A DNA stretch of 64,000 nt from Dudresnaya verticillata. Taxonomy: Eukaryota. The notes under the pieces were generated by a model. That model worked only from the letters and a program-made list of their open reading frames with translations. It searched no databases and was not told where the DNA came from. The position numbers were made by a program, and so were the translations under genes. The stretch covers positions 2,976,001 through 3,040,000 of the forward strand of contig OZ374558.1 of assembly GCA_977862235.1 (NCBI GenBank), read 5' to 3'. Shown here in pieces: positions 14,637 through 64,000 of this stretch. The number at the start of each line of letters is the position of its first letter. The stretch's first letter is position 1.

Positions 14637-17012
14637 TTGTTCATTGGATCTGGCCAGTGTCTCCTTCGTGGTCCGCAACTCGGCCTCAACATACTCCTTC
14701 TGACTTCTAACATCGGCCAATCGCTCTTCACCCCGCCTGATCACTCCTTCAACTTCATCAACGTGATAACGAAGGCGGTTAAGCTCGTCGGTCTGGCCAC
14801 ACTTCGTATCACTAAGACGGCCAATGCTCTGGTTCAGCTGACGCAAGATGTTGGCCAAAGACATTTGGTTAACATGGCCACGCACGGAAAGTTCAGCCAC
14901 CACATGCGGATGAGGATGCAGGATGCTGGCCCGCACGATGGAAGCGTCATTGGCCACTTCAATTCCAAAGCTACTGTCATGTCAAAAAGTCACTTGTTTG
15001 TTCCAGTCGAAGCCACAGTACTTCTCATTAATGGCCAGCTCTTCGTTGAAACAAATGGTCGCGGTGCAATACTGTGTCGGCTAACTTCTCATACAACGAT
15101 ACACCATCTGGACAATACACATGATTGAACTGATGATGATGCTCCTGGCTGACGGGAAGGTAAGTGAGATCTTTCACCACCTCAATCCGTCAAGAAATGG
15201 CCTGGGTGGACATCCACCACATCCTCTTCGACGCCTGCGCTTCGTAGCGGAAGAAGATACTGGCCATTACATGCAACTCGACGATGGCAGTCTCCTGAAA
15301 GCATTCAACCCAAGTAGGGTCAAGGGACTGACGACGATATTGGCCAACAAAATACTATGCCAAAGGGCTAAGAAGGCCAGCTTCACCTCTCGATGGCCAC
15401 TCCTTCCAAAGAAATGCGGGAACACTAGGGAAGTATTCGATTGCGGGCCAAACCCCTTGTTGACCACGAATACTTCCTTGGTAGACATAGCTACTTCCCG
15501 TGCGATGGGCCAGCCAATCTTCCGGCGCTATGATGCGACGAAGATCTGTACTGGCCATTTTCGCATTCCGAACGGCCGTCCTTTCCCAGCGATCGAGCAT
15601 CCAAGAATGGGGGAAAGCGTAATACCAAGTGGGGGCGTGAGGGTACACACTGGACTCGCCTTTGAACATCAACCAAGCTCCATGGACAAACATTACGTAT
15701 CGCGCACACAGCAGGAAGGCTCGGTCGCACCCGATATCCGAACCAATCCAATAGAGATGGCCATTCTCGTGCGATTCGCGATATTGATGCCACGCCTCGT
15801 TAAGAGGGCAGTGGCTTTTACGAACTCGAATCATGTCCAACTTGTCACTATTGGCCACCAATTCGGCGTAAGATATGTCCACTCGAGGTAGCTTTGGCCA
15901 GATAGAGGTTCCTGGCAAACGTCCGTCCAAAATCAACTCGGGGCCATCCTGATCTTCTAGGCTCCGAGGGAGGTGGACGCGGAAAGGTACAGAAGCACGA
16001 GTATGAGAATCCGACTCACGATCCTGATGCGCTGGAACAGAACGGCCAGCACTCGAACTCGGTTTATCCTGGCCAGTCTTAGTGACGTCCAAAGTCTCTT
16101 CGCGCGGGATAACTTCCTTCACGCGAGGATCCTCGCTTTGGCCAGATGACTTGGGCGGTGGGCCTGCAGATGGAATGGAAAGATATTGGCCAGCATTGAG
16201 TTCATCAATGTCGGGAAGCAAAGACACAAATCGACGACGGTCGCCGTCCGACATAAGGTTGGCCGGAGGAATAGGTGTAGAAGCATCCACATCAATAATT
16301 CCTGCATGAGAAGACTGACCAGTTTCCTCGCTTGGCAACCGTTGCTTCTTGGGAGGTGGACCTTTCACAGCTGGCTTCCCAATATTCAGTTTGGCCAGTT
16401 GACGCGCCCGGCTCCACTGCCGTCGGCATGAGGGGCGAAGGGACAGAGCGCAACCGCGGGGTGGACTTCCTTGAAGCGCTCGGTGTGGCTGAACGCGACG
16501 TCTTACGCGGCACGGGAATATCGGCAAAAGCATCCGGAGCCTTCTGCTCTGGTCCACTCTCATCCTTCTTCTTCTGGCCAATTATCTCCTCACTGGCCAA
16601 GGCATCTTCTCGAGCAGGGACAAAAGTAGGGGCCAAGTCAGAAGCCATCGGCTGGGCCTCGATTACCTCTTTGGCGGCCTCCACCGTGGCCTGAGCTACA
16701 AGAGGGCGGGCAATAGCTGCCACGGCCTTCGCAATGGGATCGGCCAGAGGCGGGGGAGTAGGATTGATGGCCGCCGGAGCTGAAGTACTTGCGAACGGTG
16801 CCAACTTCGAAGCCGTTGCACTTTGACCAACCTCAGCCGGAGGCCAAGCCGACGATCGGCCCAACCAACAGAAGACACTTGGCCAATGGGGCCGTGACGC
16901 CGGCGTGCGGACGACGGTGAGTGCACACAAGTATGCGACGTGTCCACCGAGTGTACACGTGGCTCACACGAGGCCACCCATGACACCGAAGCGCACCACG
17001 TGGCACGCTATA
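14637..17012 (-). pseudogene. Truncated, internally deleted second copy of the Gypsy-1 accessory ORF and its leader
   Basis: Protein fragments 14514-14957, 15355-16581 and 16292-16930 match the 53252-56650 product, with stops and frameshifts. Confidence 0.92.
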
Positions 17013-17019
17013 CCTTCAG

Positions 17020-17710
17020 TGTAGTATACTATATATCGAGATATATCTCGAAAAGCACCACCGGGTGCGTCGCCAAAACGAGACCCCAAGAAGACCAAAA
17101 AGTCCTATTGGATTTCGTAGTAACTGGCCAGAACGTAGAGCGGACCTGCGCTCCGGTAGCAAGCGTGTTAGAGCGGGAGCGCGCAGACGAAGTCGTGGCC
17201 AGATCTGCGATGAGGGCAGAAAATGACAAAGTCGGGGGTTCAGTTGCTAACTTTACTTCCAACCTCTTTCGGGACGGCTTCGAACCTTTTTCGGCTAAGC
17301 CGTGGTATGTGGCCAGATACGTAGACCCAAAAAGCGGCCATCTGAGCTAATCTAGAGCTATTCTACAGTTAGTGGCCGAGGTTACTCCCCGTCGGCCATA
17401 ATATCTACTTGTGTTCCGGCGTCGGGCCAATGTAAGGCCCTTGCGAGACTAAACCAAGTACTTTTACGTTAGTGGTTGGCCATGCGAGTTAGGGTTTCCC
17501 TTGATTTTTCCACTGTCTTCCCTTTGATTTCGCTTGCGGCCAAATCCAATTTCCATTTTTGCCTGGCCTCAAATAAGCTCACACGTGTACAGCGGGCACG
17601 TGGTGCGCTTCGGTGTTGTGGGTGGCCACGTGTGAGCCTCGTGTACACTCAATGGACACGTCTCATACCTGTGTGCACTCACCGTCGTCCGTGCGCCGGC
17701 GTCACGGCCG
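17020..17710 (-). mobile_element. Gypsy-1 LTR (17020-17367) plus adjacent internal sequence
   Basis: Ends TGTAGTAT...TTCTACA; homologous to 52250-52920. Confidence 0.85.
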
Positions 17711-43234: not shown

Positions 43235-43949
43235 CCAGGGATGTCGGATTTCGTAGCAAACGGACGAACGTAGAACGGACCTGCGCACCGGTAGCAAGCG
43301 TGGTAGAACGGGGGCGCACAGACGAAGTCGCGGCCAAAATCCTGGATGAGCAGTGGAAAATGGCCGAGTTGGGAGAAGGTTGCAAAACTTTACTCCCAAC
43401 CTCTGGCGGGACGGCTTCGTACCTATTCTGGCCGAGCCGTGGTTTGTGGCCGTCTAAGTAGACCCAAAATCGGCCACTAGAGCTAATCTAGAGCTATTCT
43501 ACAGTTAGTGGCCGAGGTTACTCCCCGTCGGCCATAATATCTACTTGTGTTCCGGCGTCGGGCCAATGTTATACCCTTACCAGACTAAACCAAGTACTTG
43601 TCTGTTAGTGGTTGGCTTAATGAGTCAGATTTTCTCTTGATTTTTCTGCTGTCTTCTGCTTGATATCACCTGCGGCCAAATCCAATTTCCTTTTTGCACT
43701 TGCTCCAGATCCGATCACACAAATCATACGTGTACAGCGGGCCACGTGATGCGCTCGGGTGCCGTAGGTGGCCACGTGTGACACACTTGTACGCTTGATG
43801 GACGCGTGTGTCTCTTTGCGCGTGTTCACCGGCGTCCGCTCGGCCGCACTGTCGTCGCTTGGCCAAACATATCTTTCTGATTGGGCTGACTGTCCCACTT
43901 GGCCCGGCCGGTTGCGCTCGTTTCGGAGGCCCCTTGGCGTTGCACCACA
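43235..43949 (-). mobile_element. Partial Gypsy-1-family LTR (to 43503) and adjacent internal sequence
   Basis: Homologous to 52320-53010. Confidence 0.85.
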
Positions 43950-51109: not shown

Positions 51110-52249
51110 GCATCCAGTACAGACATACTTTGACTTCTTCGTACCTTTGCAAATATTGCACCGGGCTTGGTATTTGCATTTTGTCGGACTTCCATCCCTC
51201 TTTAAGCTCATGCGACTAGTGGAAACAAGGTTCATGCCTGTTCCAACATAAACATCAGCACAAAAGTCTTCTTCCTCATCCGATGATTCCTGAGACGGTC
51301 CCCGTTGACGCAACCTTATTTCGTCGTATTTGTTCTCGATGAGACCCTCAGGCAGTTGCGAATGGAATTGATGCGGTGTCATCGCCGACCGGTTTCCTTG
51401 ACAACCCTTGTAGACATTCCATGAATGGACAACACAAATGCCAAAAAGTGTAGTGTTGACGCGTGTTGCCCAATCCTTCACTTCAATTTTCTTCTCAAGA
51501 GCAAGGTCATCCTGTCGGCACCTGTTGTGTATGTCAACCTGAGCACAAGTGTTGTAGTAGGACTGACATACAGTTGGAATGTTGACTTCCAATTGCTCCA
51601 ATCTAGTGGCTCCATTACTGATTCCCCAGCGTTCACGGTAGATTGACGTAGTGTTGACTGATGTCGATGCCGTACTGATAAAGTAGCGTCGATTTCTGTC
51701 AACCAACATTAGTGCCATCATTTCAAGGTTCCCAGAAGATGAGACAAGAGAAACATGATCACCCTCATTTGGCATCTCAACATTGGAAAGGTAATCCATG
51801 GGATACTTTTTGGTATATGTCGTGACAACTCCCGTAAATCGTAGCCCTCTCTCATGGAGTGCTTCGGCTCCCTCCACAGAAGCAAAGAAAGAATCGGCAC
51901 AAACCAATCGGTTTGTGCTAAACCAAGGCTCCACTAGTCGTAACATAACAGCTGTTCCATGTCGTAATTCCCTTTCATGCATCCTCTGGGAACTTTGTTC
52001 TGCATAAACAGTCAGTTCCAGTTGTAACATGATTCCACTTCTCCCGCATGCAGCGGACTTCATCTCACACCCATTCTCCGGCTTCCTGTCCATAGCCACA
52101 TAATGAGGAAGACCCTTATTGATCCAGTCCCCACACAGCCCATACCATCGTGACATACTCTCGTCAACACAGATTGCTTCAGATGGTCGTATGAACGTCT
52201 TTCGATGCTCATTTATGTCATTCACAAAAGCTGCCACGTCACTCCACCG
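51110..52249 (-). pseudogene. piggyBac-type transposase (DDE_Tnp_1_7), 5' part cut by the Gypsy LTR
   Basis: Motifs ICVDESM, RKPENG, VCADSFFASV and YYNTCAQVDIHNRCRQ, with a C-terminal CxxC..CxxC. Confidence 0.88.
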
Positions 52250-52577
52250 TGTAGTATCTCTAGAGCACCACCGCGTACGGCAGCCAAACGAGACCCCAAG
52301 AAGACCAAGAAGACCTGTCGGATTTAACCAGAACTGGCCAGAACGTAGAACGAACCTGCGCGCCGGTAGCAAGCGTGGTAGAGCGGGAGCGCGCAGACGA
52401 AGTCGTGGCCAGAATGTGTGATGAGGACAGAAAATGGCCAAGTCGAGGGTTCAGTTGCTAACTTTACTCCGAACCTCTGGCGGGACGGCTTCGTACCCTT
52501 TTCGGCTTAGCCGTAGTGTGTGGCCAGCTAAGTAGGCCCAAAATCGGCCATCTGAGCTAATCTAGAGCTATTCTACA
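52250..52577 (-). repeat. 3' LTR of Gypsy-1
   Basis: TGTAG...CTACA termini, with copies at 17020-17367 and ending at 43503. It begins exactly where the piggyBac homology breaks. Confidence 0.75.
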
Positions 52578-53251
52578 GTTAGTGGCCGAGGTTACTCCGG
52601 TCGGCCATAATATCTACTTGTGTTCCGGCGTCGGGCCAATGTAAGGCCCTTGCGAGACTAAACCAAGTACTTGTGCGTTAATGGTTGGCTCTGCGAGTTA
52701 GATTTTCCCTTGATTTTTCCACTGTCTTCCCATTGACTCACCGTGCGGCCAAATCCAATTTCGATTTGTGTCTGGCCGCAAAATCAGATCATGCGTGTAC
52801 AGCGGGCCACGTGGTGCGCTTCGGTGTCGTAGGTGGCCACGTGTGAGCCACGTGTACAGTCGGTGGCCACGTTTCATACTTGCGCGCGCTCACCGCCGTC
52901 CGCGCGCCGACGGCACGACTTCATTGGCCAAGTGTCTTCGTTTGGTTGGGCCGATCGTACAGTTGGCCCGTCGAGTTGCTTCCTTGTGGTGGCCCCCTTG
53001 CCGTTGCACCACAGAGCCCCCTTCGCAAGCGTGGACTCCTGGCCGCGAGGGTTTCATCTGGCCATATCAGCGCGCGTGATCCGCGCCGCTACCCCTCTCC
53101 CTGCACCCGGCCATCACCATCTCACTCACACCAAGTTTCCTCTTACCAACACTTGCCAAAACATCGCGCGGACGTTCTCGCTCCTTGCCAACTTGCGCGC
53201 GCCTTCCCTTGCTTCGGTCTCCAACGTGTGCGTCTGGCCAGTTCGCTCTCG

Positions 53252-56200
53252 ATGGCGGGTGGCCCTGCGAAAGCGCGTCCGCGCCGCACCGCATCGGCCA
53301 AGAAGAAGACTGTACGGCCGACCGTTTCTTCTAGTTCATCATCTACACCGCTGTCGAGCGACGAAGAAGTCGCTGTGGCCAAAGTGAAGGCGACCACGAA
53401 GAAGACTGGCCAGAGTTCGAGGCCGCGTGCGATGAAGGCGCCCAGGGCATCTTCCGCCCCAGCACCCAAGACCCCAAGTCGTGCATCTAACGATCCGTTG
53501 GGTGCTGCGAAGGCTACCGCAGTGGAGAAGCCCATCAAGACTGGCCAGAAGAAGAATGTTGCTGCCTCTGCAACTCCGGCCATGGTGCTAACTACGCCCG
53601 ATGTTGGCACCGACGAGTTAATGCAGGAGATCGCGGCCAGTCAGAAGAGACGCGAGGCTGAGGAGCAGCAACTGGCCAGCTTAAAGAAGAAGCTTGTCGA
53701 TGCGCAGAAGGCCAAGGTGGCGCGCAGCGTGACTATCGTCGCATCATCCTCGTCGGAGGAGGTAGCGGCTGCAACAGGCCAACTTGGAAGGGGCAAGCCG
53801 ACTGCATCCTCTGTTGTCGGCCCGCTAGCGAAGGAGACTCCAACAACTGGCCAGAAGGTAGCAGAAGCGCCTGAGGAAGGGTTGGTGCAGGCCGAAGTGA
53901 AGCGCCTCGAGGCGAAGAAGTTGATGCCGGCCGCAAGCACTTCGGTGCCAACGGCCATTAATCCTACTCCACCGCCGTTGGACAGCGCTGTTGAGAAGGC
54001 TGTTTTTGCCATCTCTCGTCCACTGGTTACTCAAGCTACTACTGCGGCAGCCGAAGAAGTAGCTTCGGTTCAGCCCGAGGTTTCCGATTCGGCCATGGTA
54101 TTTGTGCCCGCTCGAGAAGAACCGCTGGCCAGTAAGGAAGAGTTACCTGGAAGAGTTGAGAAGATTGGGTCAGAGCAGAAGAAAGGAGATAAGCCGGAGC
54201 AGAAGGCCCCAGAAGCTTTGGCCAATATTCCCGTGCCACGCAAGTCTTCACGTTCGGCGACACCAAGTGCTTCGAGGAAATCTACGCCGCGACTGCGCTC
54301 GGCTCCTTCGCCTTTCATGCTGACGGCTGCGAGCCGTGCGCGTGAGCTGGCCAAATTAAACATCGGCAAGCCCGCTGTTCAGGGTCCTCCCGCGAAGAAG
54401 CAGCGGCTGCCTCCTAAGGACGTTGGCCAGATATCTCGCGACGAAGTTATTGACGTCGATGCTTCCACACCGATCCCGCTGGCCAACCTCATGTCTGACG
54501 GCGATCGGCGTCGGTTTGTGGCTTTGCTCCCCGACGCCGATGAGCTTAAAACTGGTCATTCTTCGTCTACGCCTCCTGCAGGCATGCCGCCCAAGTCATC
54601 TGGCCAGAGTGAAGATCCTCGCGTGAAGGAATTTATTCCGCGCGAAGAGGCTTTGGATATCACCAAAGCTGGCCAGGATGTCCCAAGTTCAAGTGCTGGC
54701 CCCTCTGCTCCAACTCATCCAGATCGTGAACCAGCTTCGCACACTCGTGCTGCTGTCCCTTTCCGTCCCGACCTCCCACCGGGCCTAGAAGATCAGGATG
54801 GCCCCCAGTTGGTTTTGGACGAACGGTTGCCCGGTACTTCTATCTGGCCAAAGCTTCCTCGAGTGGATATTCTCTATACCGCGTTGGTGCCCGATAGTGA
54901 CAAACTGGACATGATTCGCGTGCGGGAAAGCCATTGCCCTCTCAATGAGGCGTGGCACCAATATCGCGAGTTGCATGAAAATGGCCATCTCTATTGGATC
55001 CCTTCGGAGATTGAGTGCGACCGTGCCTTCTTGCTGTGCGCGCGGGATGTGATGTTCGTCCACGGAGCTTGGTTGATGTTCAAGGGCAAGTCTAGTGTGT
55101 ACCCTCATACTTCCACATGGTATTACGCCTTCCCTCACTCGTGGATGCTTGAGCGCTGGGAGCAGACGACCGTGCGAAACGCAAAAATGGCCAGTACAGA
55201 TCTTCGTCGCATCATAGCGGCGGGAGATTGGTTGGCCCATCGCACAGGTGGTAGCTATGTCTACCATGGCAACACTCGCGGCCAGGAAGGGTTTTGGCCC
55301 CCTGTCGAGTACTTCCCTAGCGTTCCCGCTTTTCTTTGGAAGGAGTGGCCATCGAGAGGAGAAGCTTGTCTACTTAGCCCCCTGGCTTATTATTTTGTTG
55401 GCCAGTATCGTCGTCATGCGCTCGACCCCACTTGGGTTGAGTGCTTCCAGGAAACCTCTGTCGTGGAGTTACACGTAATGGTCAGTATCTTCTTCTGCTA
55501 CGAAGTGCAAGCGTCGAAGAGGATGTGGTGGATGTCTTCTCAGACCATTGCTCGACGAATTGAAGTGGTGAAAGGCATTATTTATCTCCCCGCCAGCCAG
55601 GAGCACCAGCATCAGTTCAACCATGTGTATTGGCCAGATATTGTATCGTTGTACGAGAAACTGGCCGATACAGTGCTTCACCGCGACCATTTGTTCCAAC
55701 GTCGAGCGGGCCATGATGAGAAGTATTGCGGCTTCGACTGGAACAAGCAAGTGACTTTTCGGCACGGTAGTAGCTTTGGAGTTGAGGTGGCCAATGACGC
55801 TTCCATCGTGCGGGCCAGCATCTTGCATCCTCATCCGCATGTGGTGGCCGAACTTTCTGTACGTGGCCATGTTAACCAAATGTCTTTGGCTAACGTCTTG
55901 CGGCAGCTGAACCAAAGCCTTGGCCGTCTTAGCGACACGAAGCGTGGCCAGACCGATGAACTCAACCGCCTTCGTCACCATGTTGATGAAGTGGAAGGAG
56001 TTATCAGGCGGGGCGAAGAGCGGCTGGTCAATGTTAGGAGTCAGAAGGATCAGATTGAGGCCGAGTTGCGAGCTGCAAAGGAGTCACTGGCCAGGTCCAA
56101 CGAGCAATGTCTCGAGTGGAAGAGGCAGCGCGACCGTTGGTGCGACGAAACCCATAACCAACAGGCCTTACTCGACTTGGAGCGTAACCGTGGATTTCAT

Positions 56201-56650
56201 CAGCTGGCCAGTTTGCGTGCAGTTTATGCACCGTCTGTCTTTGGCCAGGTGCCTCAGTTTCCGCTGTCTTCCCTGCCAACGCCTGCGCCGGCTCCAACCA
56301 TGCCGCAATATCCTGGGGTCTCAGTGGCACCGGCCACAACCCCCACGCTGTCTTACGCTGGTGATGTCTCTGGTCATCCGCGCGCGCCGTCTCGACCGGC
56401 TGATTATCAGCCAGAGCCAACTCGTCCGGTGGTGTCGGCTCTACCTACTCCTGTGGCCAATGTTGCTCAAACTGGCCATGTTCCCGGCCGTTTGGCTCTG
56501 CCGATCACTTCGCCCTTCGTGACGCCGCCAACTGTTCCCGCGACGGCCCCACGTGCGCCTGCGACAGCGCCTCAGGCGCCTTCACAGGCAAGGAGCAGAG
56601 AGCCCTATGCTTCGGGTTATCCTCGCTCGCCAAGTCCTTATGGCCGTTAG
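53252..56650 (+). CDS. Accessory protein of unknown function (1132 aa), antisense to gag-pol
   Basis: Uninterrupted ORF with a basic low-complexity N-terminus, a Trp/His/Tyr-rich core, a coiled coil and a Pro-rich tail. The second copy shows synonymous changes. Confidence 0.88.
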   Translation: MAGGPAKARPRRTASAKKKTVRPTVSSSSSSTPLSSDEEVAVAKVKATTKKTGQSSRPRAMKAPRASSAPAPKTPSRASNDPLGAAKATAVEKPIKTGQKKNVAASATPAMVLTTPDVGTDELMQEIAASQKRREAEEQQLASLKKKLVDAQKAKVARSVTIVASSSSEEVAAATGQLGRGKPTASSVVGPLAKETPTTGQKVAEAPEEGLVQAEVKRLEAKKLMPAASTSVPTAINPTPPPLDSAVEKAVFAISRPLVTQATTAAAEEVASVQPEVSDSAMVFVPAREEPLASKEELPGRVEKIGSEQKKGDKPEQKAPEALANIPVPRKSSRSATPSASRKSTPRLRSAPSPFMLTAASRARELAKLNIGKPAVQGPPAKKQRLPPKDVGQISRDEVIDVDASTPIPLANLMSDGDRRRFVALLPDADELKTGHSSSTPPAGMPPKSSGQSEDPRVKEFIPREEALDITKAGQDVPSSSAGPSAPTHPDREPASHTRAAVPFRPDLPPGLEDQDGPQLVLDERLPGTSIWPKLPRVDILYTALVPDSDKLDMIRVRESHCPLNEAWHQYRELHENGHLYWIPSEIECDRAFLLCARDVMFVHGAWLMFKGKSSVYPHTSTWYYAFPHSWMLERWEQTTVRNAKMASTDLRRIIAAGDWLAHRTGGSYVYHGNTRGQEGFWPPVEYFPSVPAFLWKEWPSRGEACLLSPLAYYFVGQYRRHALDPTWVECFQETSVVELHVMVSIFFCYEVQASKRMWWMSSQTIARRIEVVKGIIYLPASQEHQHQFNHVYWPDIVSLYEKLADTVLHRDHLFQRRAGHDEKYCGFDWNKQVTFRHGSSFGVEVANDASIVRASILHPHPHVVAELSVRGHVNQMSLANVLRQLNQSLGRLSDTKRGQTDELNRLRHHVDEVEGVIRRGEERLVNVRSQKDQIEAELRAAKESLARSNEQCLEWKRQRDRWCDETHNQQALLDLERNRGFHQLASLRAVYAPSVFGQVPQFPLSSLPTPAPAPTMPQYPGVSVAPATTPTLSYAGDVSGHPRAPSRPADYQPEPTRPVVSALPTPVANVAQTGHVPGRLALPITSPFVTPPTVPATAPRAPATAPQAPSQARSREPYASGYPRSPSPYGR

Positions 56651-57570
56651 TTGTCAAGGTCTTGGATTAGTAGTTGGCCAGCTCGTCTTGTGCTCTTATG
56701 CTGGCCAATGAGATGTTGTTAGTCTTGTGATTTCCTGTGTCTTGTGTTTGCGTTGTCAAAATTTGGTGGCCAAGTTAGTGCGTCTAAGGTTGGACAGACC
56801 CCCCCTTGTCCTTGGGGGTTAATGAGTCTGTCCGGCCAGTCTTGAGTTAAAGTGCACTGGTTACCTTCAAAAATGTTGCGTGTTATCGTGGCCAGTTACT
56901 AGTCAAATGGGGCTGTAAGGCCTTTGTTAGTTCGGGTCAGTAGGTCTTGCTTCTGGCCAATGCTCATGAGCACAGCTGGAAAAACGGGGTTAAGGGAGTC
57001 AGTGGTTAAGTCAAAGCAAAAAAATGGCCAGTGCGAGTGGTGGGGTGGAGTGGCCTTGGTGTGGGGCTACCTTCTTCAAGGCGCCGAAGGAAGAGTAATG
57101 GCCAGCTATTGTCTTCTTCTCACCGGCTTCAAGCACCTCATCTGGCCATGTCTTCTTCTCTGGCCAATTTCCTTCTTGTTGTCGGTAGGGGCTATCGTCG
57201 TTTCCCCTGTTCTCTCACTCTGCGCAAACCCCCCGCTCGGGAGCACGACGCGTGGGAATTAGAGTTACCTGGAAAAGGCAACAAAAGATGAGGTAGTTTC
57301 TACCGTCCATTTACACCCACTGAATTTCGGCGTACACCGGGAGATTTGCTGGCCGCGACTTTCTCACACATGATTGGTCAGCTTACATTATTCTGGGTTA
57401 ACCCTAAACACCGCCGTCTTGTTTTTGGTGACGGGGTTCCAGCCGGGGTTATTTTGTCACCCAGCATCTCCTTCCTCCGTCCACAACCACCCCGCATCTC
57501 CGTCTTCACAAGTTTTTGGCCAGACTCTGACTCCTCTCGCTTGACTTCCCTGGCCATGTCGAGGTTGACC

Positions 57571-60500
57571 TCACGAACTGTTTTGGCCCGGCGTAGCTCG
57601 GCGCTTCATGCGCGCGAAGAAGCGGGACACCAACGTGGCCGGCAGAAGAGCCTCGGGTTCCCAGGTTCGGCCATTATACCCATACCACTTGACCTGAAAC
57701 CACCGCTGGCCAGTTGAATCCTCGCGCATATCCGTGAGCTTGTCAATGACATATTCCTCGGCCGACGCAGCGACTCCTTCTGGAAGGGTTCCCAATGCGG
57801 CGCTGACTATTGTCTCCGTAGCCATCGGTTGCCCTTGTGGCCTGGGCGCGGCTACTACTCGGTCCGAGCTAACACGCTCTAGTTGGCCAGCTCCGTCTAT
57901 GACGAACGTACGGCCATCATTGCTTATAATTTTGTATGGCCCCTGGGCATGATGCTCTAGTTTCTTTGGCTGCTTTTCGGGGTTGTCCAGGAAGACAAAT
58001 CCCCCAGCGGCCAGCATATTATTCCCCGTTCTAACCGAGCGGTCAAAGTCCTTCTTGTAGCGCGCTTGTGTGCGAGTTAAACTGGCCGAAGCTTTATCCA
58101 CGGCCTCTGATAATCGGCGTAAGAACGCTTCTTTGACAGTCCCTGTTGGCTTTGGCCGGTTTAACGTAGCTTCAAGTGAGAATTGACTCGGCGGCCGACT
58201 GAGAACCAAGTCAAACGGCGTGGTTCCAGTTGAGCGATTTATATGGCAATTATAAGCATACGTCAATGCCGCAGCGTACTCATCCCAGTCAGTCTGATGT
58301 TCATTCACGTAGCTCCTCAGCATTGCGGCCAATGTTCGATTGTACCTTTCCACTTGGCCATTTGTTTGTGGATGATATGTTGTTGTGAAGATGTTGGCCA
58401 CCTGTAATTGTCGGCAGACTGCCTGGAAGAACTTGGCCGCAAACTGCCCTCCGTTATCGGTAAGAACTGTCTTTAGTGCGCCGTACTTGAAAATCTAGTG
58501 AACGCAAAACCCCGTGGCCACATTATAGGCGGTTATCTTCGTCAAAGGCACCACCTGAGTCAGCTTCGAGAAGCGACATTTCATGACTAATATGTGCTAG
58601 AACCCCTTCTTAGTTCTGGGGAGTGGCCCGAGGAGGTCCATGGCCACACTCTCTAATGGTTTACTGGCCGGGAACAGCTGTAACTTCGATGTATGTCGGA
58701 GACGACGAATCCGGTTTTTGGCGCAATGGCCACAGTTCCGAACTGTTGCTAGGCAATCAGCGGCCATGTGGGGCCAATAGTATGTCCGTCGAAGAGTCTG
58801 ATACATTCGATTCTGGCCAGGGTGACCTGCCAGAACGGTATGGTGACACAACCGAAGAATGCGGCCATGTAACAAGGCTGGAAGCACTATTTGTTTCTGG
58901 CCATCTGTCGGACAACGCCTGTAGAGGACCCCATCGACTCCTTCGAAGAAGAGAGGTTTCTTGGGTCGTCCCAGGCCAGTTCGCGTGGCGAGAATGGTCT
59001 GGCAGAAGTCATCGCTTTTCTGGCCTTCTATTATTTCAGTCTGTGTTACTGGTGTTGGGAGGATCTCTGCTGTCTTCCCTTCCATTTGTGCACGACTGAA
59101 GACTTCCGCCCGGCCATAGTCCGTATAATCGGCCATCAAATGTTCCTCTTCCCATGCGTCGACTCCATCGTCTCTTTCTCTCCTGTCGGCCATATTAATT
59201 TCTCGATTTCTCCGGGCCCGCGTGGTCGTGAGAATAGAGGGGGTACCGTCCAATACAGGTACATTATCATCTATTGGCCGTGCATCTCCGCTCTCTTGCG
59301 AGGCCACCAAGCGGGACAAGGCATCGGGTACTTGGTTCTTACGCCCCGTTTTATACTCAATCACAAAGTCGAACTCGGCCAGACGTAGTCTCCATCTTGT
59401 AAGACGGCGAGACGAATCAGTGAGCGACATCAACCAACGGAGGGCATCATGGTCCGTACGAACTGTGAACTTTGTACCTTCAACATATGGCCGTAATGAT
59501 GTAATTTGCCCACACCACAGACAAACACTCGCGCTCCGTGGCCGAATAGTTTTTCTCGGCCGACGTCAGGGAACGAGACCAATATCCCACGGGATGGTAC
59601 GACTCGTCCTCTTGTTCTTGGAGCAGAACGCATCCAATCTGATATGCGCTGGCATCGGTCTCAATCACATATGGCCGACCGTATCTAGGTAAGGCCAGAA
59701 TCGGCGGCGAGACGAGAGCGGCCTTCAGTTTCTCGAAGCTATGACATTGTTCCTCCGTTGGCCGTTCGAAGTCTGGCTCGGCATCCTTGCACAACATGCG
59801 CGTAAGTGGCCGTGCGATGGTGGAGAATTTGGCCACAAACCTTCGGTAGACATTGCAAGCGCCCAAGAAGGACCGGAGTTCCGTAAGAGATCCTGGAAAC
59901 TCGGCCTCTTGTATTGCCTTGGTACCCTGCATGGCCATACTTAGTTTTCCGGGGGTCACTACATGGCCCAGATAATCTACTTTGGCCTGAAAGAAGGAAC
60001 ACTTCTTCAACTTCAACGTAATGCCGGCCGCCTTCAACAAGGTTAGGACCTCGTCTAGATGGCCAAGATGATCCTCCACACTTTTGGAGAACACGATGAC
60101 ATCGTCCAGATAGATGAGGCAGATCTGCCATCGGACGCCAGAGAGAACTATGTCAAGCGCGCGCTGAAATGTGGCCGGTGCGTTCTTCAAGCCAAACGGC
60201 ATTCGATTGTACCTGAATGTCCCCAAGTGAGAGGTGAAAGCCGTCTTATCCTTGTCCTCCTCGGCCACTGGTATTTGCCAATATCCGGAGTTGCAGTCCA
60301 AGGTTGAAAACTCGGCCGCATCCCCAAGGGAGTCTATACAATCTTCCATGCGCGGGAGCGGGTATGCGTCACCAACTGTCTTCGCATTGAGTCGGCGGTA
60401 ATCGACGCAGAAACGATGCCTTCCTTTTTCGGTACCATCACAATTGGCGAGGCCCATTCTCCTTGCGATGGCTCTATCACTCCGGCCTCAAACTGCTTCC

Positions 60501-62000
60501 TAATGTCGGCCTCTGCGATCGCGCGTAACGTTGGTCCCTGTCGGCAGGGCATCGCTATTATTGGCCGGGTTCCATCTTCCAAGTCTATCCGATGTTCGGT
60601 GGCCATGATCTGTCCCAGGGAACCGTCCCACATTGCAATGTGTTTCTCTAGAATGGCCATTATCTTTTCGCGTTGTTTCTTGTCCGGAATATGATCAATC
60701 TTGATCTTATCCCGCCATTCTTGTGCCTCTTGTCTGGGTACCTTTGGTTCTGAAGGCTCACCTGTTTCTTGGCCAGATTCTTCTACTTCTACTTGACTAC
60801 TATCCTGACCCACAGGTGGAGTAAGCCCAAGTACACTGGCCATATTCTCCACACTCCGTCGGTGTGGCGTCAGGATTTCCATGGGGTGGCGGACAGCATA
60901 GCCGACCACGGTACCATTTGGCAGTAAGACATCCTTTCTTCCCCAGTTGGCCAGCATTACCTGGAATGGTTTCTGCGGCCGAACTTCGGCAACTCCATTG
61001 GCCATCCGCGTATGGTGCCGAAAGCTCAAAGAATGTTTGGGCTCCAACACACATAATCCTCGGCCATCGCTGCGAACAGACACGGTGGCCTGTTGGCCTG
61101 CCTGTATGGTTAGACCTTTCGTCAATCGTACAGTGGCCGCGTAGTGTCGCGGGGTCTTGCGTTCCGTACTGGCCGAATTGGAATTACCCGGAGGCCGGGC
61201 CCCCTTCGCAGCGGTTGGCTCTGGCCCCAGAGCCATCGAAGTGCTGTCGGGTAACAAAGGAAGGACGTCACCGCGCACTAAGTGCACGGTCTGTGCACGG
61301 CACTGGATGCTATCCACGTGCGTGTTCAGAAATTTCGTACCCAACAAAACGGGTACGGCAAAGCGAAGGTCAGCGATAAGGAACGGCACTCGATATGAGT
61401 GACGGCCTAAGCGTACGACCAAGGAAACGGCCCCTCGAAAATGAATCGGCCGTTGGTTGGCGTCCCCCAGAAGGGGTGGGGACGTCAACGCAAGTGCGTT
61501 GTCCTTCCAGTTGGGAGGCAACGCATCCAACCGGATGATGTTTCAACCCGAGCACGTGTCTAAGACAATTGGCCCGGGTAACAAGGCGGACATCGTGAGT
61601 CCAAATGAACCCGAAAGGGTATAGTTGGCCCCACCCAGGATGCAGACCATACCTTGTGATGAAACACTGGCCAGTTGGGATTCCTCTTGCTGTTCGTCGT
61701 TCGATGATTTGCGGCCACTCTTTGGCAACGAACCCCCGTTTGTGGTGGGGGTGGATGATGATGTAGTATGGCCAGATCTCCAGGGCGGTGACCACACCAG
61801 AGCGTTAGATGAAAATGGGCAGTGGTAGGTCAAATCATGGGTTGACCAAACCTGGATTGGCGTTGCCAAACGCCATGCAATGGCTAACAAAGAATATAAA
61901 TGGAGATGACTAAAAGGAAATAACTTAACTGAAACGAGACTATCCGGTTTTGGGACGTGTACGGGCAACGGGATCACGACCGAAGATCTCGGCCCGGCTA
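57571..62000 (-). pseudogene. Gypsy pol (PR, RT, RNase H, integrase, chromodomain) with several frameshifts and stops
   Basis: Motifs VLDTCSG, MPFGLKNAPATFQ, YLDD, ETDASAYQIG, HHCC zinc finger, YHPQTNGQVERYN, GPY and EEYVIDKL..VKWYGY..TWEP. Confidence 0.95.
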
Positions 62001-62007
62001 GTTTCCC
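61962..62007 (-). promoter_or_regulatory. Putative -1 ribosomal frameshift signal (gag-pol)
   Basis: G GGA AAC lies immediately before the gag TAG. The -1 frame is open into the protease and a GC-rich stem follows. Confidence 0.7.
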
Positions 62008-64000
62008 GACGCTAACGAAGAATTATCGGACTCCACATCGGCCACCACCTCATCCAATGGATGTTCTTGCGTAGTGACTAACGTGGCCTGCCGATTCCCA
62101 CGGTTCGAAGATGATTGTTGTGGCCGTCGGAGTATTCCCTGAGGGGGAGGGCGTCCCCTTCCATCCCCAAAGGAGACATTCCTTTGGTATGGGCGGTAAC
62201 CGCGACCACCTCGGCCAGCAAACTGTTCAGGGTGCCATCTAGGGAATTCATCTCGGAAGCGGAAGTTACGTATGGCAAACAAGTTCCTGATGGCCATTGG
62301 TAAGTACACACAAGTGTACAAATCATGGCCCCATTCGCGACAACCCCAACAACGGGCACTGGTTTTGTCACTGCGTAGCATAATAGCGACTTTGGCCAGC
62401 TCATCCGATGTTAACGTCGGAGGTTTTCGGAGTGGGTCCGGGGTATTACCCCCGGACACCGACCCTGCCGGTGACGGCGTGGTCGGCGTCATCTTCGGTG
62501 TTTGCTGAGCACCATTCTGGCCAGGGGTAATGGCCATAACCAGTATGGTGTCAAACGGATCATCATAGTTGGCCTCTATATCCTCCGGCTCTGCCTGCCA
62601 AGCAGGTTCGGCCGCAAGGGTAGGGATGTCCAACGCACTTCGAGAACTGGCCGACCCTGTTTTGGGTCGTGCAGAAGCCAAGTAGGCTCTGTGTGTCTCC
62701 CCCTCGGCGATGGCGATACGGCGCACCGTCGAGAAGTCCTTCTCCTCCGGCCGCATCTGCATAAGCTTCTCAGCTACGGCCGAACGAGTAGTCGAAGGTA
62801 AACCCCTCACATAATTGTTGATCAGGGTGTTCTCCGAGAAGACATCGGCGCACGACAGCGCCGCGTCCCCTAACCGGTCAGCGAATTCCGCTTCTGTCTC
62901 GGTATCTTTCTGTTTGCTTCTGGCCACTTTGTCGAACGCAGCGGCCAGAACATCTTCGGTGCAGTAGCGTTTGATGAGAGCGTGGACTAATTGTGGCCAG
63001 CTGATTTGTGAAAATCCACTCATCGGAAAGATGGAGTGTACTAACCTTATACCACGGGAAATTCGGCCAGAATAGAACCTCTTCGCATCACCGGCCGTAA
63101 ACAAGGCCAGTAGACGCAAAGCGGCCCCTTCATGGACGTTTTTCCCATCACAGGCGTCCTTGAACGCCTTGAGGAAGGACAGGAGCTCGATCGGACGTCG
63201 GCCATCAAATGGGTTCATCTGCGGGAACAAGTTCCGGATTTGGCGAGTCATCCGGGACAAGCGCCGCGCATCCTCCATAGTCATCGTTGGCCGAGTATCC
63301 AAAAGGCGGTGGGTCCGGTAATCCACCACCCGCCGGAAGGGTTCTTGGAGGGTCTTGAGAGGCTCTAGACCTGGTTCCATTGGCCCCATCATCGCGACAG
63401 GAAGACCTGTTTCATCCAACTGGCCAGTGTATCCCATGGAAGGGTCCCCTGCATCAACTGGCCCCGAAGGTCCAACTAAAGCAGGCCGTGGGGCGGCACC
63501 ACTGTTCTGAGTGTTGCCCTCTTGCGGTGGTACCCCTTCTTCAGGAATTTTTGGCCGAGCCTTGTCAGGATGCGACAAGGCTGTTATCTCATCTTGCAAC
63601 TTATCCAGTTGCTTCTGCACTGCTGCTACCGGTTCACCCACCTGCGGTGCCAAGACTGGTAGGTTGGCCGGTGTTATCCGAGCGGACTCGGACCTTGTCT
63701 GGCCAGGGAGATCAGGGAGTTTTACCTTCCCGTCGGAAGAGAAGACGGCCTTCTCAACCTTTTCCAGACGCTCATCATAACGTTCCGCTATGGCCGTAAG
63801 TGCACCGTCTAGGATGACGGAGTGTATCTCCTGGCGAAGCTGTTGGTCCCTAATCAGAGCCGTGGTGGAAATCTTGACTTGCATCTCGCCAAACTGGTTC
63901 TTCACCTCTTGTTGCCACTCGGCTGTACGTCGCTTATACTGGTAGAACTCTTGCCGGCCCAACCAAACGTCGTGTTCTGGCTGGGAATCATCATCAACTG
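61998..64000 (-). CDS. Gypsy gag (5' partial)
   Basis: The frame is open to the window edge, with a capsid-like region and the knuckle CWGCREWGHDLYTC. Confidence 0.9.
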   Translation of the reverse strand, partial: VDDDSQPEHDVWLGRQEFYQYKRRTAEWQQEVKNQFGEMQVKISTTALIRDQQLRQEIHSVILDGALTAIAERYDERLEKVEKAVFSSDGKVKLPDLPGQTRSESARITPANLPVLAPQVGEPVAAVQKQLDKLQDEITALSHPDKARPKIPEEGVPPQEGNTQNSGAAPRPALVGPSGPVDAGDPSMGYTGQLDETGLPVAMMGPMEPGLEPLKTLQEPFRRVVDYRTHRLLDTRPTMTMEDARRLSRMTRQIRNLFPQMNPFDGRRPIELLSFLKAFKDACDGKNVHEGAALRLLALFTAGDAKRFYSGRISRGIRLVHSIFPMSGFSQISWPQLVHALIKRYCTEDVLAAAFDKVARSKQKDTETEAEFADRLGDAALSCADVFSENTLINNYVRGLPSTTRSAVAEKLMQMRPEEKDFSTVRRIAIAEGETHRAYLASARPKTGSASSRSALDIPTLAAEPAWQAEPEDIEANYDDPFDTILVMAITPGQNGAQQTPKMTPTTPSPAGSVSGGNTPDPLRKPPTLTSDELAKVAIMLRSDKTSARCWGCREWGHDLYTCVYLPMAIRNLFAIRNFRFRDEFPRWHPEQFAGRGGRGYRPYQRNVSFGDGRGRPPPQGILRRPQQSSSNRGNRQATLVTTQEHPLDEVVADVESDNSSLASGN

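What the first reader, a model, noticed from the sequence alone, without database searches (positions are those of the whole stretch)
52250..64000. Gypsy-1 is enriched in GGCC/TGGCCA across LTR, UTR, accessory ORF and gag-pol
Seen: by hand count there are 18 GGCC in 58621-59460 against 3 in the equally long, GC-rich host gene stretch 35821-36660, with about 4 expected from composition. The excess is visible in oppositely oriented ORFs and in non-coding parts, and recurs in the family copies at 14637-17710 and 43235-43949, so simple codon bias is an unlikely cause. Inference: the motif may be a family-specific recognition code bound by the element's own accessory protein, as in VANC/VANDAL anti-silencing. 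It could instead be a methylation, nucleosome or packaging signal.
Basis: partly seen in the sequence, partly recalled or inferred. Interest (0 to 1): 0.82.

Follow-up and report, generated by a model that had tools for sequence, protein, structure and literature searches.

The report
Retrotransposon family saturated with TGGCCA palindromes
One Ty3/Gypsy retrotransposon family in this window carries the short palindrome GGCC (mostly TGGCCA) five to twenty times more densely than the DNA around it, evenly spread through its LTR, spacers and every gene and kept even at silent codon positions, which likely makes it a family-specific recognition signal whose reader is still unknown.

Summary
In 52250-64000 GGCC occurs 211 times, against 66±8 in dinucleotide shuffles. 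TGGCCA occurs 74 times, against 4±2. The motif is YGGCCR with symmetric flanks. Every compartment is enriched: LTR, spacers, the antisense accessory ORF and gag-pol, plus the two other family copies. The abutting piggyBac and all other repeats in the window are not enriched.

The excess survives synonymous-codon shuffling in all 6 ORF pieces and falls in all three codon phases. Four-fold silent sites inside the motif are conserved in 25 of 29 cases between two copies that are 82% identical. Comparable sites outside are conserved in 35 of 63 (p≈0.004). Spacing is more even than random. Eighty related elements from metagenomes (RT 52-59% identical) show no excess (pooled O/E 1.00) and no other motif of similar strength.

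The accessory ORF is a real gene (dN/dS 0.12), but it is an orphan in which only a coiled coil is recognisable. Best reading: a selected, dense palindromic "self label", likely read on duplex DNA by a dimeric factor. The element's own accessory protein is the leading candidate, and this is untested.

The parts
52250..53013 (-). 3' LTR of the element (sense strand is the minus strand). On the + strand it runs TGTAG...CACCACA. It has the highest GGCC density (25 per kb) and G-box-like CACGTGGCC boxes near 52805-52875.
   Evidence: Matches LTR copies at 17044-17706 (87.6%) and 43242-43949 (80%). Termini and an adjacent purine-rich tract were read. GGCC 19 vs 4.1 in shuffles.
53014..53251 (.). Non-coding stretch between the LTR and the accessory ORF. 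It holds the polypurine-like tract for the sense strand and the leader of the antisense ORF.
   Evidence: GGCC 4 vs 1.5, TGGCCA 2 vs 0.1 in shuffles. Sequence read.
53252..56650 (+). Accessory ORF of 1132 aa, antisense to gag-pol. It has a basic, disordered N-terminal half, a Trp/Tyr/His-rich middle part and a long coiled coil at about residues 900-990.
   Evidence: Open frame. dN/dS 0.116 over 633 codons against the copy at 14637-16552. No Pfam family at E<=0.001 and only coiled-coil noise at E<=5. One weak relative in 1.84 billion representatives. GGCC 57 vs 34.9±3.6 in synonymous shuffles.
56651..57570 (.). Non-coding spacer between the convergent ends of the accessory ORF and pol. It has the highest TGGCCA density (12 per kb).
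   Evidence: GGCC 15 vs 4.5, TGGCCA 11 vs 0.4 in shuffles.
57571..58494 (-). Integrase C-terminal piece with chromodomain.
   Evidence: PF00385 Chromo, E 8.9e-5. Frame map. GGCC 17 vs 7.1±2.0 in synonymous shuffles.
58597..59565 (-). Integrase N-terminal piece (H2C2 zinc finger).
   Evidence: PF17921, E 6.8e-17. GGCC 18 vs 9.6±1.8.
59480..60487 (-). Reverse transcriptase and RNase H.
   Evidence: PF00078 E 7.6e-33 and PF17919 E 3.7e-30. GGCC 19 vs 8.2±2.2, with 13 of 19 as xxG|GCC.
60334..61542 (-). Segment between gag and RT (protease region expected; no family matched).
   Evidence: Open frame. 0 Pfam families. GGCC 22 vs 10.0±2.3.
61998..63998 (-). gag. The frame runs off the window end. 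The 5' LTR lies outside the window.
   Evidence: PF03732 Retrotrans_gag, E 4.7e-5. GGCC 33 vs 17.4±3.1.
14637..17013 (-). Second, degenerate family copy in the opposite orientation: an accessory-ORF fragment (82% identical to 54194-56107) plus part of an LTR.
   Evidence: Relative to the main copy it has 2 single-base indels and 3 stops. 21 of the main copy's 29 GGCC sites are shared in register.
17020..17706 (-). LTR copy abutting the previous fragment head-to-head (likely a nested insertion within the family).
   Evidence: 87.6% identical to 52255-52917. Junction read. 11 of 15 GGCC shared.
43235..43949 (-). Third, more diverged LTR copy.
   Evidence: 80% identical to 52316-53013. GGCC 16 vs 3.9 in shuffles. 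12 of 19 GGCC shared.

Best explanation
The GGCC/TGGCCA excess is a real, family-specific array of about one YGGCCR palindrome per 55 bp written through the whole element. It is likely kept by selection as a density-coded 'self' label that would be read on double-stranded DNA by a dimeric factor; the element's own antisense-encoded coiled-coil protein is the leading but untested candidate. Shown directly: the excess itself, its presence in all compartments and all codon phases, its restriction to this family, the extra conservation of silent sites inside the motif, the over-even spacing, the strand symmetry, and purifying selection on the accessory gene. A 6-bp site occurs by chance about every 3 kb in the background, so only site density could give specificity. 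That would explain why sites cover the whole element at a near-constant density and avoid lying within about 18 bp of each other, which is roughly one footprint.
For: The excess is real and not compositional. It survives synonymous shuffles in 6 of 6 ORF pieces and falls in all three phases. It has left a mark on the proteins. In the accessory protein Gly-His/Gln dipeptides number 17 vs 4.1 expected, and [LMV]-Ala-[IMTNKSR] tripeptides 16 vs 7.3. Density is similar in the most constrained domain (RT-RNase H, 19 in 978 nt) and in non-coding DNA, which suggests a set-point rather than mutation pressure opposed by protein constraint. Four-fold sites inside GGCC are conserved in 25/29 and 25/27 cases, against 35/63 and 31/51 for non-CpG G/C four-fold sites outside (p 0.005 and 0.003). 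Whole motifs stay intact in 21/29, 11/15 and 12/19 cases, against 47%, 62% and 50% for any 4-mer. All six classes of one-step neighbours are mildly depleted (0.71-0.94 of background) and no single mutation class is drained. Spacing CV is 0.737 against 0.928±0.062 in 2000 random placements (minimum 0.748). Gaps under 18 bp number 14 against 49±5. Every 200-bp bin holds at least one site. The flanks are symmetric: T 61%/C 27% before the core and A 55%/G 23% after it, with TGGCCG 29 vs CGGCCA 30. Wobble-tolerant and wobble-intolerant variants are equally common on each strand. Adjacent motifs show almost no extra complementarity: mean 0.64 vs 0.51 bases. The excess is family-specific: no other repeat in the window has it, and 80 relatives have median O/E 1.0, maximum 1.51 and pooled 1.00. 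The accessory gene is under purifying selection (dN/dS 0.116). It contains a confidently predicted long helix or coiled coil (pLDDT up to 95; coiled-coil-only matches). It is unrelated to the antisense ORFs of motif-free sisters.
Against: No DNA-binding domain, fold or informative relative was found for the accessory protein. Both structure models are unusable (mean pLDDT 42 and 32). Co-occurrence of motif and protein rests on a single lineage. Sister lineages with other conserved antisense ORFs carry no motif of their own, so nothing shows that antisense proteins of this clade use DNA codes. Extra conservation of motif sites would also arise from a motif-directed repair bias. Keeping about 200 sites of small individual effect by selection is demanding. 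The copy in the window has a broken gag-pol (at least 2 frameshifts and 2 in-frame stops), so nothing here shows current activity. No expression, methylation or binding data could be obtained.
Confidence: 0.3

Rival explanations
1. RNA-level palindrome. UGGCCA copies along the genomic RNA would pair between molecules, like a many-site version of the retroviral dimerisation palindrome, or would serve as dispersed packaging contacts for Gag, promoting dimerisation, packaging or condensation of the element's RNA.
For: Every part of the element, LTR included, lies in the genomic RNA, and the motif covers all of it. A GC-rich 6-nt palindrome is the kind of sequence that retroviral dimer initiation sites use (recalled knowledge, not from a call). 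Quasi-regular spacing would suit repeated capsid contacts.
Against: No strand asymmetry was found. On the + strand the wobble-compatible variants GGCT+GGTC number 78 and AGCC+GACC number 67; TGGCCG numbers 29 and CGGCCA 30. An RNA duplex should tolerate G·U pairs but not A·C pairs. Adjacent motifs show no extended hairpin complementarity. A motif read on single-stranded RNA by a protein has no need to be palindromic.
Confidence: 0.17
2. Host-factor or epigenetic mark. A host protein would read or modify the sites, and the element would benefit. Candidates are a DNA methyltransferase with GGCC/YGGCCR specificity, a chromatin or centromere protein, or a transcription factor.
For: Palindromic 4-6-bp sites at high density resemble targets of modification enzymes; YGGCCR is the specificity of known bacterial type II systems (recalled, not from a call). 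The closest pattern known, HIP1 in cyanobacteria, is linked to orphan methyltransferases (abstracts of PMC4390886 and PMC13756078 in the listing). The LTR joins the motif to G-box-like CACGTGGCC boxes. The element carries a chromodomain.
Against: If a host silencer read the sites, variants that lose sites should win, yet the sites are conserved. Background DNA and other repeats show no bias (O/E 0.85). Neither CpG nor GGCC shows methylation-type decay between copies: CpG four-fold sites are as conserved as others, and transitions at lost motifs (12 of 17) match the overall transition share (233 of 342). No methyltransferase gene was seen in the window.
Confidence: 0.2
3. Neutral, directional process. 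A motif-directed repair or gene-conversion bias, or a context-specific error of this lineage's reverse transcriptase, would keep creating and restoring YGGCCR without any function.
For: About 200 weakly selected sites are hard to keep by selection alone. Biased repair would also mimic conservation of the motif. The process would be lineage-specific if tied to this family's replication machinery. Very-short-patch-type repair is a known source of motif excess in bacteria (recalled; discussed as the alternative in PMC5861425, abstract and section 18 read).
Against: No precursor class is drained. All six one-step neighbours sit at 0.71-0.94 of background, and transitions are not affected more than transversions. 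No other doubled-dinucleotide word is enriched (CCGG 53). A mutational drive does not predict the over-even spacing and the roughly 18-bp exclusion zone. It also does not predict equal density in RT and non-coding DNA.
Confidence: 0.15
4. Landing pads for self-insertion. The family's integrase would prefer the palindrome as its target, so copies rich in it would attract new insertions into old copies rather than into host genes.
For: Integrase multimers tend to choose weakly palindromic targets, and Ty3/Gypsy families show autoinsertion (PMC6911290, passages read). Two family fragments abut head-to-head at 17013/17020.
Against: The one junction readable in the window lies beside a GTGGCCCG word, not in one. 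The benefit is indirect and group-level. The palindrome preference reported in that paper is slight. The idea does not explain silent-site conservation within an active lineage better than direct benefits do.
Confidence: 0.05
5. Chance, amino-acid composition or codon usage.
For: GCC and GGC are common codons in a 55% GC element. GGCC prefers phases xxG|GCC and GGC|Cxx.
Against: In all 6 ORF pieces the observed count exceeds every one of 300 synonymous shuffles and every one of 300 codon-order shuffles. Non-coding parts are equally or more enriched. The closest RT proteins (62-70% identical, 21 proteins) show no dipeptide imprint: G[HQ] 26 vs 22.9.
Confidence: 0.01

Closest known systems
VANC/VANDAL sequence-specific anti-silencing (Arabidopsis Mutator-like elements; PMC5735166, abstract and two Results sections read)
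   Same: A short motif is highly enriched in one TE family and rare elsewhere. In that paper motif density, not single sites, sets the protein's localisation. The element encodes a fast-evolving accessory protein. Related families differ.
   Different: VANC targets are 9-bp non-palindromic words arrayed in one orientation, mainly in non-coding DNA and often as tandem repeats. Here the motif is a 6-bp palindrome with no tandem repeats, spread through coding sequence in all frames. The element is an LTR retrotransposon, not a DNA transposon. The accessory protein shows no similarity to any Pfam family. Binding and loss of methylation are untested.
HIP1, the highly iterated palindrome GCGATCGC of cyanobacteria (PMC5861425, abstract and section 18 read)
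   Same: A short GC-rich palindrome is over-represented by an order of magnitude (15-300-fold there, about 18-fold for TGGCCA here). It is found within and between ORFs in all reading frames. It is more conserved than control words and than the same codons outside the motif. Its function is unknown.
   Different: HIP1 is a chromosome-wide property of a bacterium, with site density around one per gene and periodicity at 10-90 kb. Here the palindrome is confined to one mobile-element family of a eukaryote, at one site per 55 bp, with short-range even spacing.
Antisense ORFs between pol and the 3' LTR in plant Retand (Tat) elements (PMC11963269, passages read)
   Same: A long pol-to-3'LTR region carries a conserved ORF antisense to gag-pol. 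Authors propose regulatory, DNA-binding roles for it.
   Different: Retand elements are non-chromoviruses whose antisense proteins mostly carry the TRP28 domain (PF04195). This element has a chromodomain and its protein matches no Pfam family. No element-wide motif excess is described in the passages read.
Retroviral dimer-initiation palindromes (recalled knowledge, no call)
   Same: A 6-nt GC-rich self-complementary word in a retroelement genome.
   Different: Those are single sites in a 5'-leader hairpin loop. Here there are about 210 dispersed sites with no hairpin context and no RNA-type strand asymmetry.

Membership tests
Ty3/Gypsy chromovirus (the carrier element) | gag, then RT and RNase H upstream of integrase, on one strand | tested here: met
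   PF03732 at 61998-63998, PF00078/PF17919 at 59480-60457 and PF17921 at 58597-59433, all on the minus strand.
Ty3/Gypsy chromovirus (the carrier element) | Chromodomain at the integrase C-terminus | tested here: met
   PF00385, E 8.9e-5, 22.8 bits, in 57571-58401. This is just under Pfam's 25.1-bit cut-off.
Ty3/Gypsy chromovirus (the carrier element) | Two LTRs flanking the internal region | not testable with these tools
   Only the 3' LTR (52250-53013) lies in the window; gag runs off at 64000. LTR identity is supported by two other copies.
VANC-type anti-silencing system | Accessory protein homologous to VANC | tested here: not met
   No Pfam family at E<=0.001 and only coiled-coil noise at E<=5. 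One weak unnamed relative in 1.84 billion representatives.
VANC-type anti-silencing system | Motif enriched in the cognate family and rare in other TEs | tested here: met
VANC-type anti-silencing system | Motifs concentrated in non-coding regions as same-orientation, often tandem, arrays | tested here: not met
   The motif is a palindrome. Density is 16-25 per kb in coding and non-coding parts alike. No tandem arrays.
VANC-type anti-silencing system | Protein binds the motif and causes loss of DNA methylation | not testable with these tools
   Needs EMSA or ChIP and a methylome. No sequencing runs were listed.
HIP1-like highly iterated palindrome | Short palindrome over-represented by an order of magnitude or more | tested here: met
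   TGGCCA 74 vs 4.1. O/E is 17.8 on a dinucleotide model.
HIP1-like highly iterated palindrome | Present in all reading frames and between ORFs | tested here: met
HIP1-like highly iterated palindrome | Sites conserved beyond codon and general conservation | tested here: met
   Four-fold sites conserved 25/29 inside vs 35/63 outside. GCC and GGC codons conserved 39/52 inside the motif vs 11/22 outside (summed). This rests on one pair of copies.
HIP1-like highly iterated palindrome | Chromosome-wide property of a cyanobacterial genome | tested here: not met
   Confined to one retrotransposon family. Background O/E is 0.85.
Retand-type antisense ORF | Antisense ORF between pol and the 3' LTR | tested here: met
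   53252-56650 on the + strand, between pol's end (57571) and the LTR (53013).
Retand-type antisense ORF | TRP28 (PF04195) domain | tested here: not met
   Absent from the Pfam scans.

The most novel reading that the evidence does not exclude
A eukaryotic LTR retrotransposon lineage has written a dense, evenly spaced palindromic bar-code (YGGCCR every ~55 bp) through its LTR and all of its genes, bending its own protein sequences to do so. Its orphan antisense-encoded coiled-coil protein reads that code to coat family copies as 'self'. This would be a retrotransposon-borne, sequence-specific self-recognition (anti-silencing) system that evolved independently of VANC, and a eukaryotic, element-scale counterpart of cyanobacterial HIP1.
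Probability: 0.25. Interest if true: 0.9.

Novelty: new variant of a known kind. Interest (0 to 1): 0.72.

Why it matters
Family-specific motif arrays read by TE-encoded proteins are so far known from one system: VANC in Arabidopsis DNA transposons, where the motifs sit in non-coding DNA. Hyper-abundant palindromes kept at silent sites are known from cyanobacterial chromosomes (HIP1), and their function is still unsettled. Here a comparable signal is confined to one retrotransposon family, is strong enough to shape the element's proteins, and sits beside an orphan gene under purifying selection. If the sites are a selected label, the element offers a compact, testable case of how a mobile element marks itself apart from the host genome. 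It would also give a 6-bp code that could be removed by synonymous recoding to test function. If instead a repair or reverse-transcription bias made the sites, that would be an unusually sharp mutational signature in a eukaryotic element. Two literature searches listed no paper describing such an excess in a retrotransposon; I judged this from titles and abstract openings only.

Tried and rejected
- **Whole genome:** none is held for this window, so family-wide copy counts, ages and target sites could not be studied.
- **Sequencing runs:** none was listed for 53252-58400 ('no RNA holder listed'), so expression, editing and methylation could not be examined and read laying was not used.
- **Earlier findings of the scan:** nothing by place, sequence or words.
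- **Accessory protein, sequence searches:**
  - The word-index search of residues 480-1000 gave no hit.
  - The full phmmer search of 1.84 billion representatives gave one hit, P0122 (E 1.2e-4, 27% identity over about 150 residues). Its cluster has one unnamed member.
  - The Atlas feature search gave a best score of 0.80, which is within the noise.
  - The PDB sequence search gave only coiled-coil matches at E>=0.08.
- **Accessory protein, structure:** two AlphaFold runs gave mean pLDDT of 42 and 32. No fold search was run, because the models are meaningless outside one long helix.
- **Homology to sister antisense ORFs:** tblastn found none. hhalign probability was below 1% against two sister families.
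- **Organism:** a non-TE ORF (37331-39049) had no relatives, and ten other long ORFs had no Pfam family except one DDE_1. The only taxonomic hint is that the named RT relatives are from red algae: Chondrus crispus 58% and Agarophyton chilense 53%.
- **Closer relatives' DNA:** the RT proteins at 62-70% identity could not be fetched as DNA. Their proteins show no dipeptide imprint, which is only weak evidence that they lack the motif.
- **Precursor-word depletion** (editing or deamination signatures such as TAG/CTA, CpG, GGTC/GACC): none found.
- **Helical or longer periodicity of spacing:** only the 3-nt codon period stands out.
- **Hairpins between neighbouring motifs:** not supported.


Full report
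**1. Observation.**
There are 18 GGCC in 58621-59460 and 3 in 35821-36660, with 4.2 and 5.5 expected from base composition. Over the whole stretch 52250-64000 there are 211 GGCC. In 200 dinucleotide-preserving shuffles the count is 66.4±7.6, with a maximum of 88. There are 74 TGGCCA, against 4.1±2.0 and a maximum of 10. A second-order Markov model, which already knows the GGC, GCC and GC counts, still expects only 128.6. For comparison I used the 47 kb of the window that does not belong to this family. There, GGCC is 4.8-fold rarer per base, and TGGCCA is about 18-20-fold rarer (15 occurrences against 74). That background DNA has an ordinary GGCC O/E of 0.85.

**2. Anatomy.**
- The carrier is a chromodomain-bearing Ty3/Gypsy element whose sense strand is the minus strand.
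- Its parts are gag (61998-63998, running off the window), an unassigned protease-region frame, RT-RNase H (59480-60457), an integrase zinc finger (58597-59433), and an integrase C-terminus with chromodomain (57571-58401).
- The gag-pol of this copy is interrupted by at least two frameshifts and two in-frame stops, beyond a possible gag-pol shift.
- The 3' LTR is 52250-53013. It runs TGTAG...CACCACA on the + strand, with a purine-rich tract beside it.
- Between pol and the LTR, on the opposite strand, lies an intact 1132-codon ORF at 53252-56650.
- Three other pieces of the family are in the window:
  - 14637-17013, inverted, carrying an accessory-ORF fragment 82% identical to the main copy plus part of an LTR;
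  - 17020-17706, an LTR 88% identical;
  - 43235-43949, an LTR 80% identical.

**3. What the motif is.**
- The position before the core is T in 61% and C in 27% of sites. The position after it is A in 55% and G in 23%.
- 147 of the 211 sites are YGGCCR. TGGCCA is the commonest form (74), and CTGGCCAG is the commonest octamer (17).
- The flanks mirror each other.
- TGGC and GCCA are enriched only as parts of the motif.
- Apart from GGCC (4.8-fold) and TGGC/GCCA (2.7-fold), the element's word usage resembles the background. No word is strongly depleted.

**4. It is not composition, codons or repeats.**
- Every compartment is enriched against its own dinucleotide shuffles: LTR 19 vs 4.1, accessory ORF 57 vs 19.9, ORF-pol spacer 15 vs 4.5, gag-pol 116 vs 35.0, second copy 57 vs 15.6, third copy 16 vs 3.9.
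- The abutting piggyBac-like sequence has 2 vs 2.8.
- In each of the six ORF pieces the observed count exceeds the maximum of 300 synonymous-codon shuffles and of 300 codon-order shuffles. Examples are accessory ORF 57 vs 34.9±3.6 and RT-RNase H 19 vs 8.2±2.2.
- The motif falls in all three phases, with xxG|GCC and GGC|Cxx preferred.
- The motif has left a mark on the proteins. The accessory protein has 17 Gly-His/Gln dipeptides against 4.1 expected. It has 16 [LMV]-Ala-[IMTNKSR] tripeptides against 7.3.
- In the conserved RT the motif mostly uses conserved Ala, Pro or Gly residues, or variable positions. Residues touched by the motif match the majority of 15 homologues in 23 of 35 cases, against 226 of 316 overall.
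- Tandem Repeats Finder found one 20-bp array in 11.7 kb.

**5. It is specific to this family.**
- A sliding scan of the window for locally over-used 4-mers and 6-mers highlights GGCC-type words only over the family's copies. No other repeat family has a comparable word of its own.
- From a metagenome collection I fetched 80 loci that encode RT-RNase H 52-59% identical to this one.
- Their GGCC O/E has a median of 1.0 and a maximum of 1.51.
- Pooled over 677,794 bases, GGCC is 5950 vs 5927 expected. TGGCCA has O/E 1.54, no more than other palindromes such as CAGCTG (1.59) or GGTACC (1.58).
- Among the loci of at least 5 kb, no 4-mer or 6-mer approaches the window's signal. The highest values there come from AT microsatellites and GCC triplet runs, against z 34 for TGGCCA here.
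- Many of these sisters also carry a conserved ORF antisense to pol just downstream of it. These ORFs fall into at least three families:
  - L001, L031, L017, L032, L027, L041 and L037;
  - L007 and L065;
  - L042, L057, L052 and L029.
- None of the 11 such elements examined at k=4-8 has a motif of its own. The top z is about 10, against 36-43 here.
- Those ORFs are not detectably related to the window's accessory protein. tblastn found nothing, and hhalign probability was below 1%.
- The closest RT proteins in the protein collection (62-70% identical, 21 proteins) could not be fetched as DNA. They show no dipeptide imprint: G[HQ] 26 vs 22.9.

**6. The sites are conserved.**
- The main copy and the second copy differ at 18% of positions across 1.9 kb of the accessory ORF.
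- Between them dN/dS is 0.116 over 633 codons, so the ORF is a real gene that diverged under purifying selection.
- Of the main copy's 29 GGCC sites in this stretch, 21 are intact in register in the other copy. For all 4-mers the figure is 47%.
- In the two LTR comparisons the figures are 11/15 against 62% and 12/19 against 50%.
- At four-fold degenerate sites, which are silent for the protein, bases inside the motif are conserved in 25 of 29 cases. With the other copy as reference the figure is 25 of 27.
- Non-CpG G/C four-fold sites outside the motif are conserved in 35 of 63 and 31 of 51 cases (Fisher p 0.005 and 0.003).
- CpG sites are not hypermutable here.
- GCC and GGC codons are kept more often inside the motif than outside: 39/52 against 11/22, summed.
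- This is the test used for HIP1 in cyanobacteria (PMC5861425, section 18).
- Caveat: the result rests on one pair of copies. A motif-directed repair bias would also look like conservation.

**7. Spacing and symmetry.**
- The mean gap between sites is 55 bp.
- The coefficient of variation of the gaps is 0.737. In 2000 random placements it is 0.928±0.062, with a minimum of 0.748.
- Gaps under 18 bp number 14, against 49±5 expected. This holds in each of the four compartments.
- Every 200-bp bin has at least one site, and the variance/mean ratio of counts per bin is 0.57-0.59.
- No other frequent 4-mer outside the motif behaves this way.
- Apart from the 3-nt codon period there is no helical or longer periodicity.
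- Density is nearly the same in the most constrained domain and in non-coding DNA. This looks like a set-point rather than mutation pressure held back by protein constraint.
- The six classes of one-step neighbours of GGCC are all mildly depleted (0.71-0.94 of background), with no single class drained. This argues against one particular substitution process.
- Variants that an RNA duplex would tolerate through G·U pairs are no commoner on either strand than those it would not. On the + strand GGCT+GGTC number 78 and AGCC+GACC number 67. TGGCCG numbers 29 and CGGCCA 30.
- Neighbouring motifs have almost no extra flanking complementarity: 0.64 vs 0.51 bases.
- Together these results favour a strand-symmetric reading, meaning duplex DNA. 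The evidence for that is indirect.

**8. The accessory protein.**
- It has a basic, Ser/Thr/Pro/Ala-rich N-terminal half and a Trp/Tyr/His-rich middle region.
- Near residues 900-990 it has a long helix, predicted with pLDDT up to 95, that matches only coiled-coil entries. A Pro-rich tail follows.
- No Pfam family matches it.
- One weak relative, P0122, was found among 1.84 billion representatives.
- Nothing useful came from the word-index search or the Atlas.
- Both structure predictions are unusable outside the helix.
- A coiled coil would suit a dimer reading a palindrome, but nothing shows that this protein binds nucleic acid.

**9. Mechanism.**
I commit to this reading. The sites are a selected, density-coded label of the family, likely read on duplex DNA by a dimeric and perhaps cooperative factor. 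The element's own accessory protein is the first candidate, and the benefit to the element would be protection from silencing or promotion of expression.
- My confidence that the excess is real and family-specific is near 1.
- That it is maintained by selection: about 0.7.
- The rivals are RNA-RNA pairing or packaging (0.17), a host factor or modification mark (0.2), a repair or reverse-transcription bias (0.15), integrase landing pads (0.05), and codon or chance effects (0.01).

**10. Comparison with what is known.**
- The logic is closest to VANC/VANDAL. There a 9-bp motif is enriched only in the cognate family and its density directs the protein (PMC5735166).
- Membership in that system fails on protein homology and on motif anatomy. 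VANC motifs are non-palindromic, lie in one orientation in non-coding DNA, and are often tandem.
- The pattern is closest to HIP1: a palindrome in all frames, conserved beyond codon constraints (PMC5861425). HIP1, however, is a whole-chromosome trait of bacteria.
- The position of the gene resembles the antisense ORFs of plant Retand elements (PMC11963269). Those carry TRP28, and Retand elements lack chromodomains.
- Two literature searches found no description of a retrotransposon family saturated with a short palindrome. The term sets were TGGCCA + retrotransposon, and GGCC / overrepresented / transposable element / palindrome. I looked only at the titles and abstract openings of the listed papers.

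**11. Verdict.**
The interpretation as a family-specific recognition code is plausible and partly supported. The link to the accessory protein is untested. I rate it a new variant of known kinds (TE family motif arrays and highly iterated palindromes), with interest 0.72.

Noticed in passing
window 50927-52441 (-): A piggyBac-type transposase ORF (PF13843, E 1.8e-24) runs up to and into the Gypsy LTR boundary at 52250. The Gypsy element appears to have landed in or beside a piggyBac copy. The GGCC density changes sharply at the junction.
   Followed up: partly
L001 6754-9000, L031 7261-9492, L017 7011-8774, L007 8209-10740, L042 3572-5728 and others (minus strand of the loci): Related Gypsy elements from metagenome contigs carry conserved ORFs antisense to pol just downstream of it. 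They fall into at least three families with little or no mutual similarity (one weak hhalign match, E 7e-4). The antisense slot seems to be a recurrent trait of this clade, filled by different proteins.
   Followed up: partly
window 52805-52875 (LTR, U3 side): There are three to four closely spaced CACGTGGCC(A/C)C boxes, each a G-box-like CACGTG fused to the family palindrome. They are likely promoter elements of the LTR.
   Followed up: no
window 17009-17045: Two fragments of the same family abut head-to-head. An inverted LTR piece ends near 17009 and a second LTR starts with TGTAGTAT at 17020, followed by an AT-rich 26-bp insert. This looks like a nested insertion within the family.
   Followed up: partly
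window 41591-41638 and 43950-43997: A 48-bp stretch of another repeat family (contiguous at 27820-28721) is duplicated on both sides of a 2.3-kb insert that ends with the third Gypsy LTR copy. This is far longer than an LTR-element target duplication.
   Followed up: no
window 1-52000: The rest of the window is a mosaic of at least half a dozen other repeat families with copies 80-99% identical. It includes a pogo-like DDE_1 ORF at 26069-26869. Ten of the eleven other long ORFs tested have no Pfam family, and the 572-aa ORF at 37331-39049 has no relatives.
   Followed up: partly
L040, L052, L070, L044, L026 and other loci: Many of the related metagenome elements over-use CAAG/CTTG (up to 217 vs 108 expected, z 10.5 in L040). 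This is a milder, clade-wide word bias of unknown cause, probably codon-related.
   Followed up: no
window 53252-56650 vs 57571-64000: In this copy the 3.4-kb accessory ORF is intact while the 6.4-kb gag-pol has at least four disruptions. With so few events this is not statistically remarkable (roughly 1 in 8 by chance). It would be worth checking genome-wide whether the accessory gene outlives gag-pol.
   Followed up: partly
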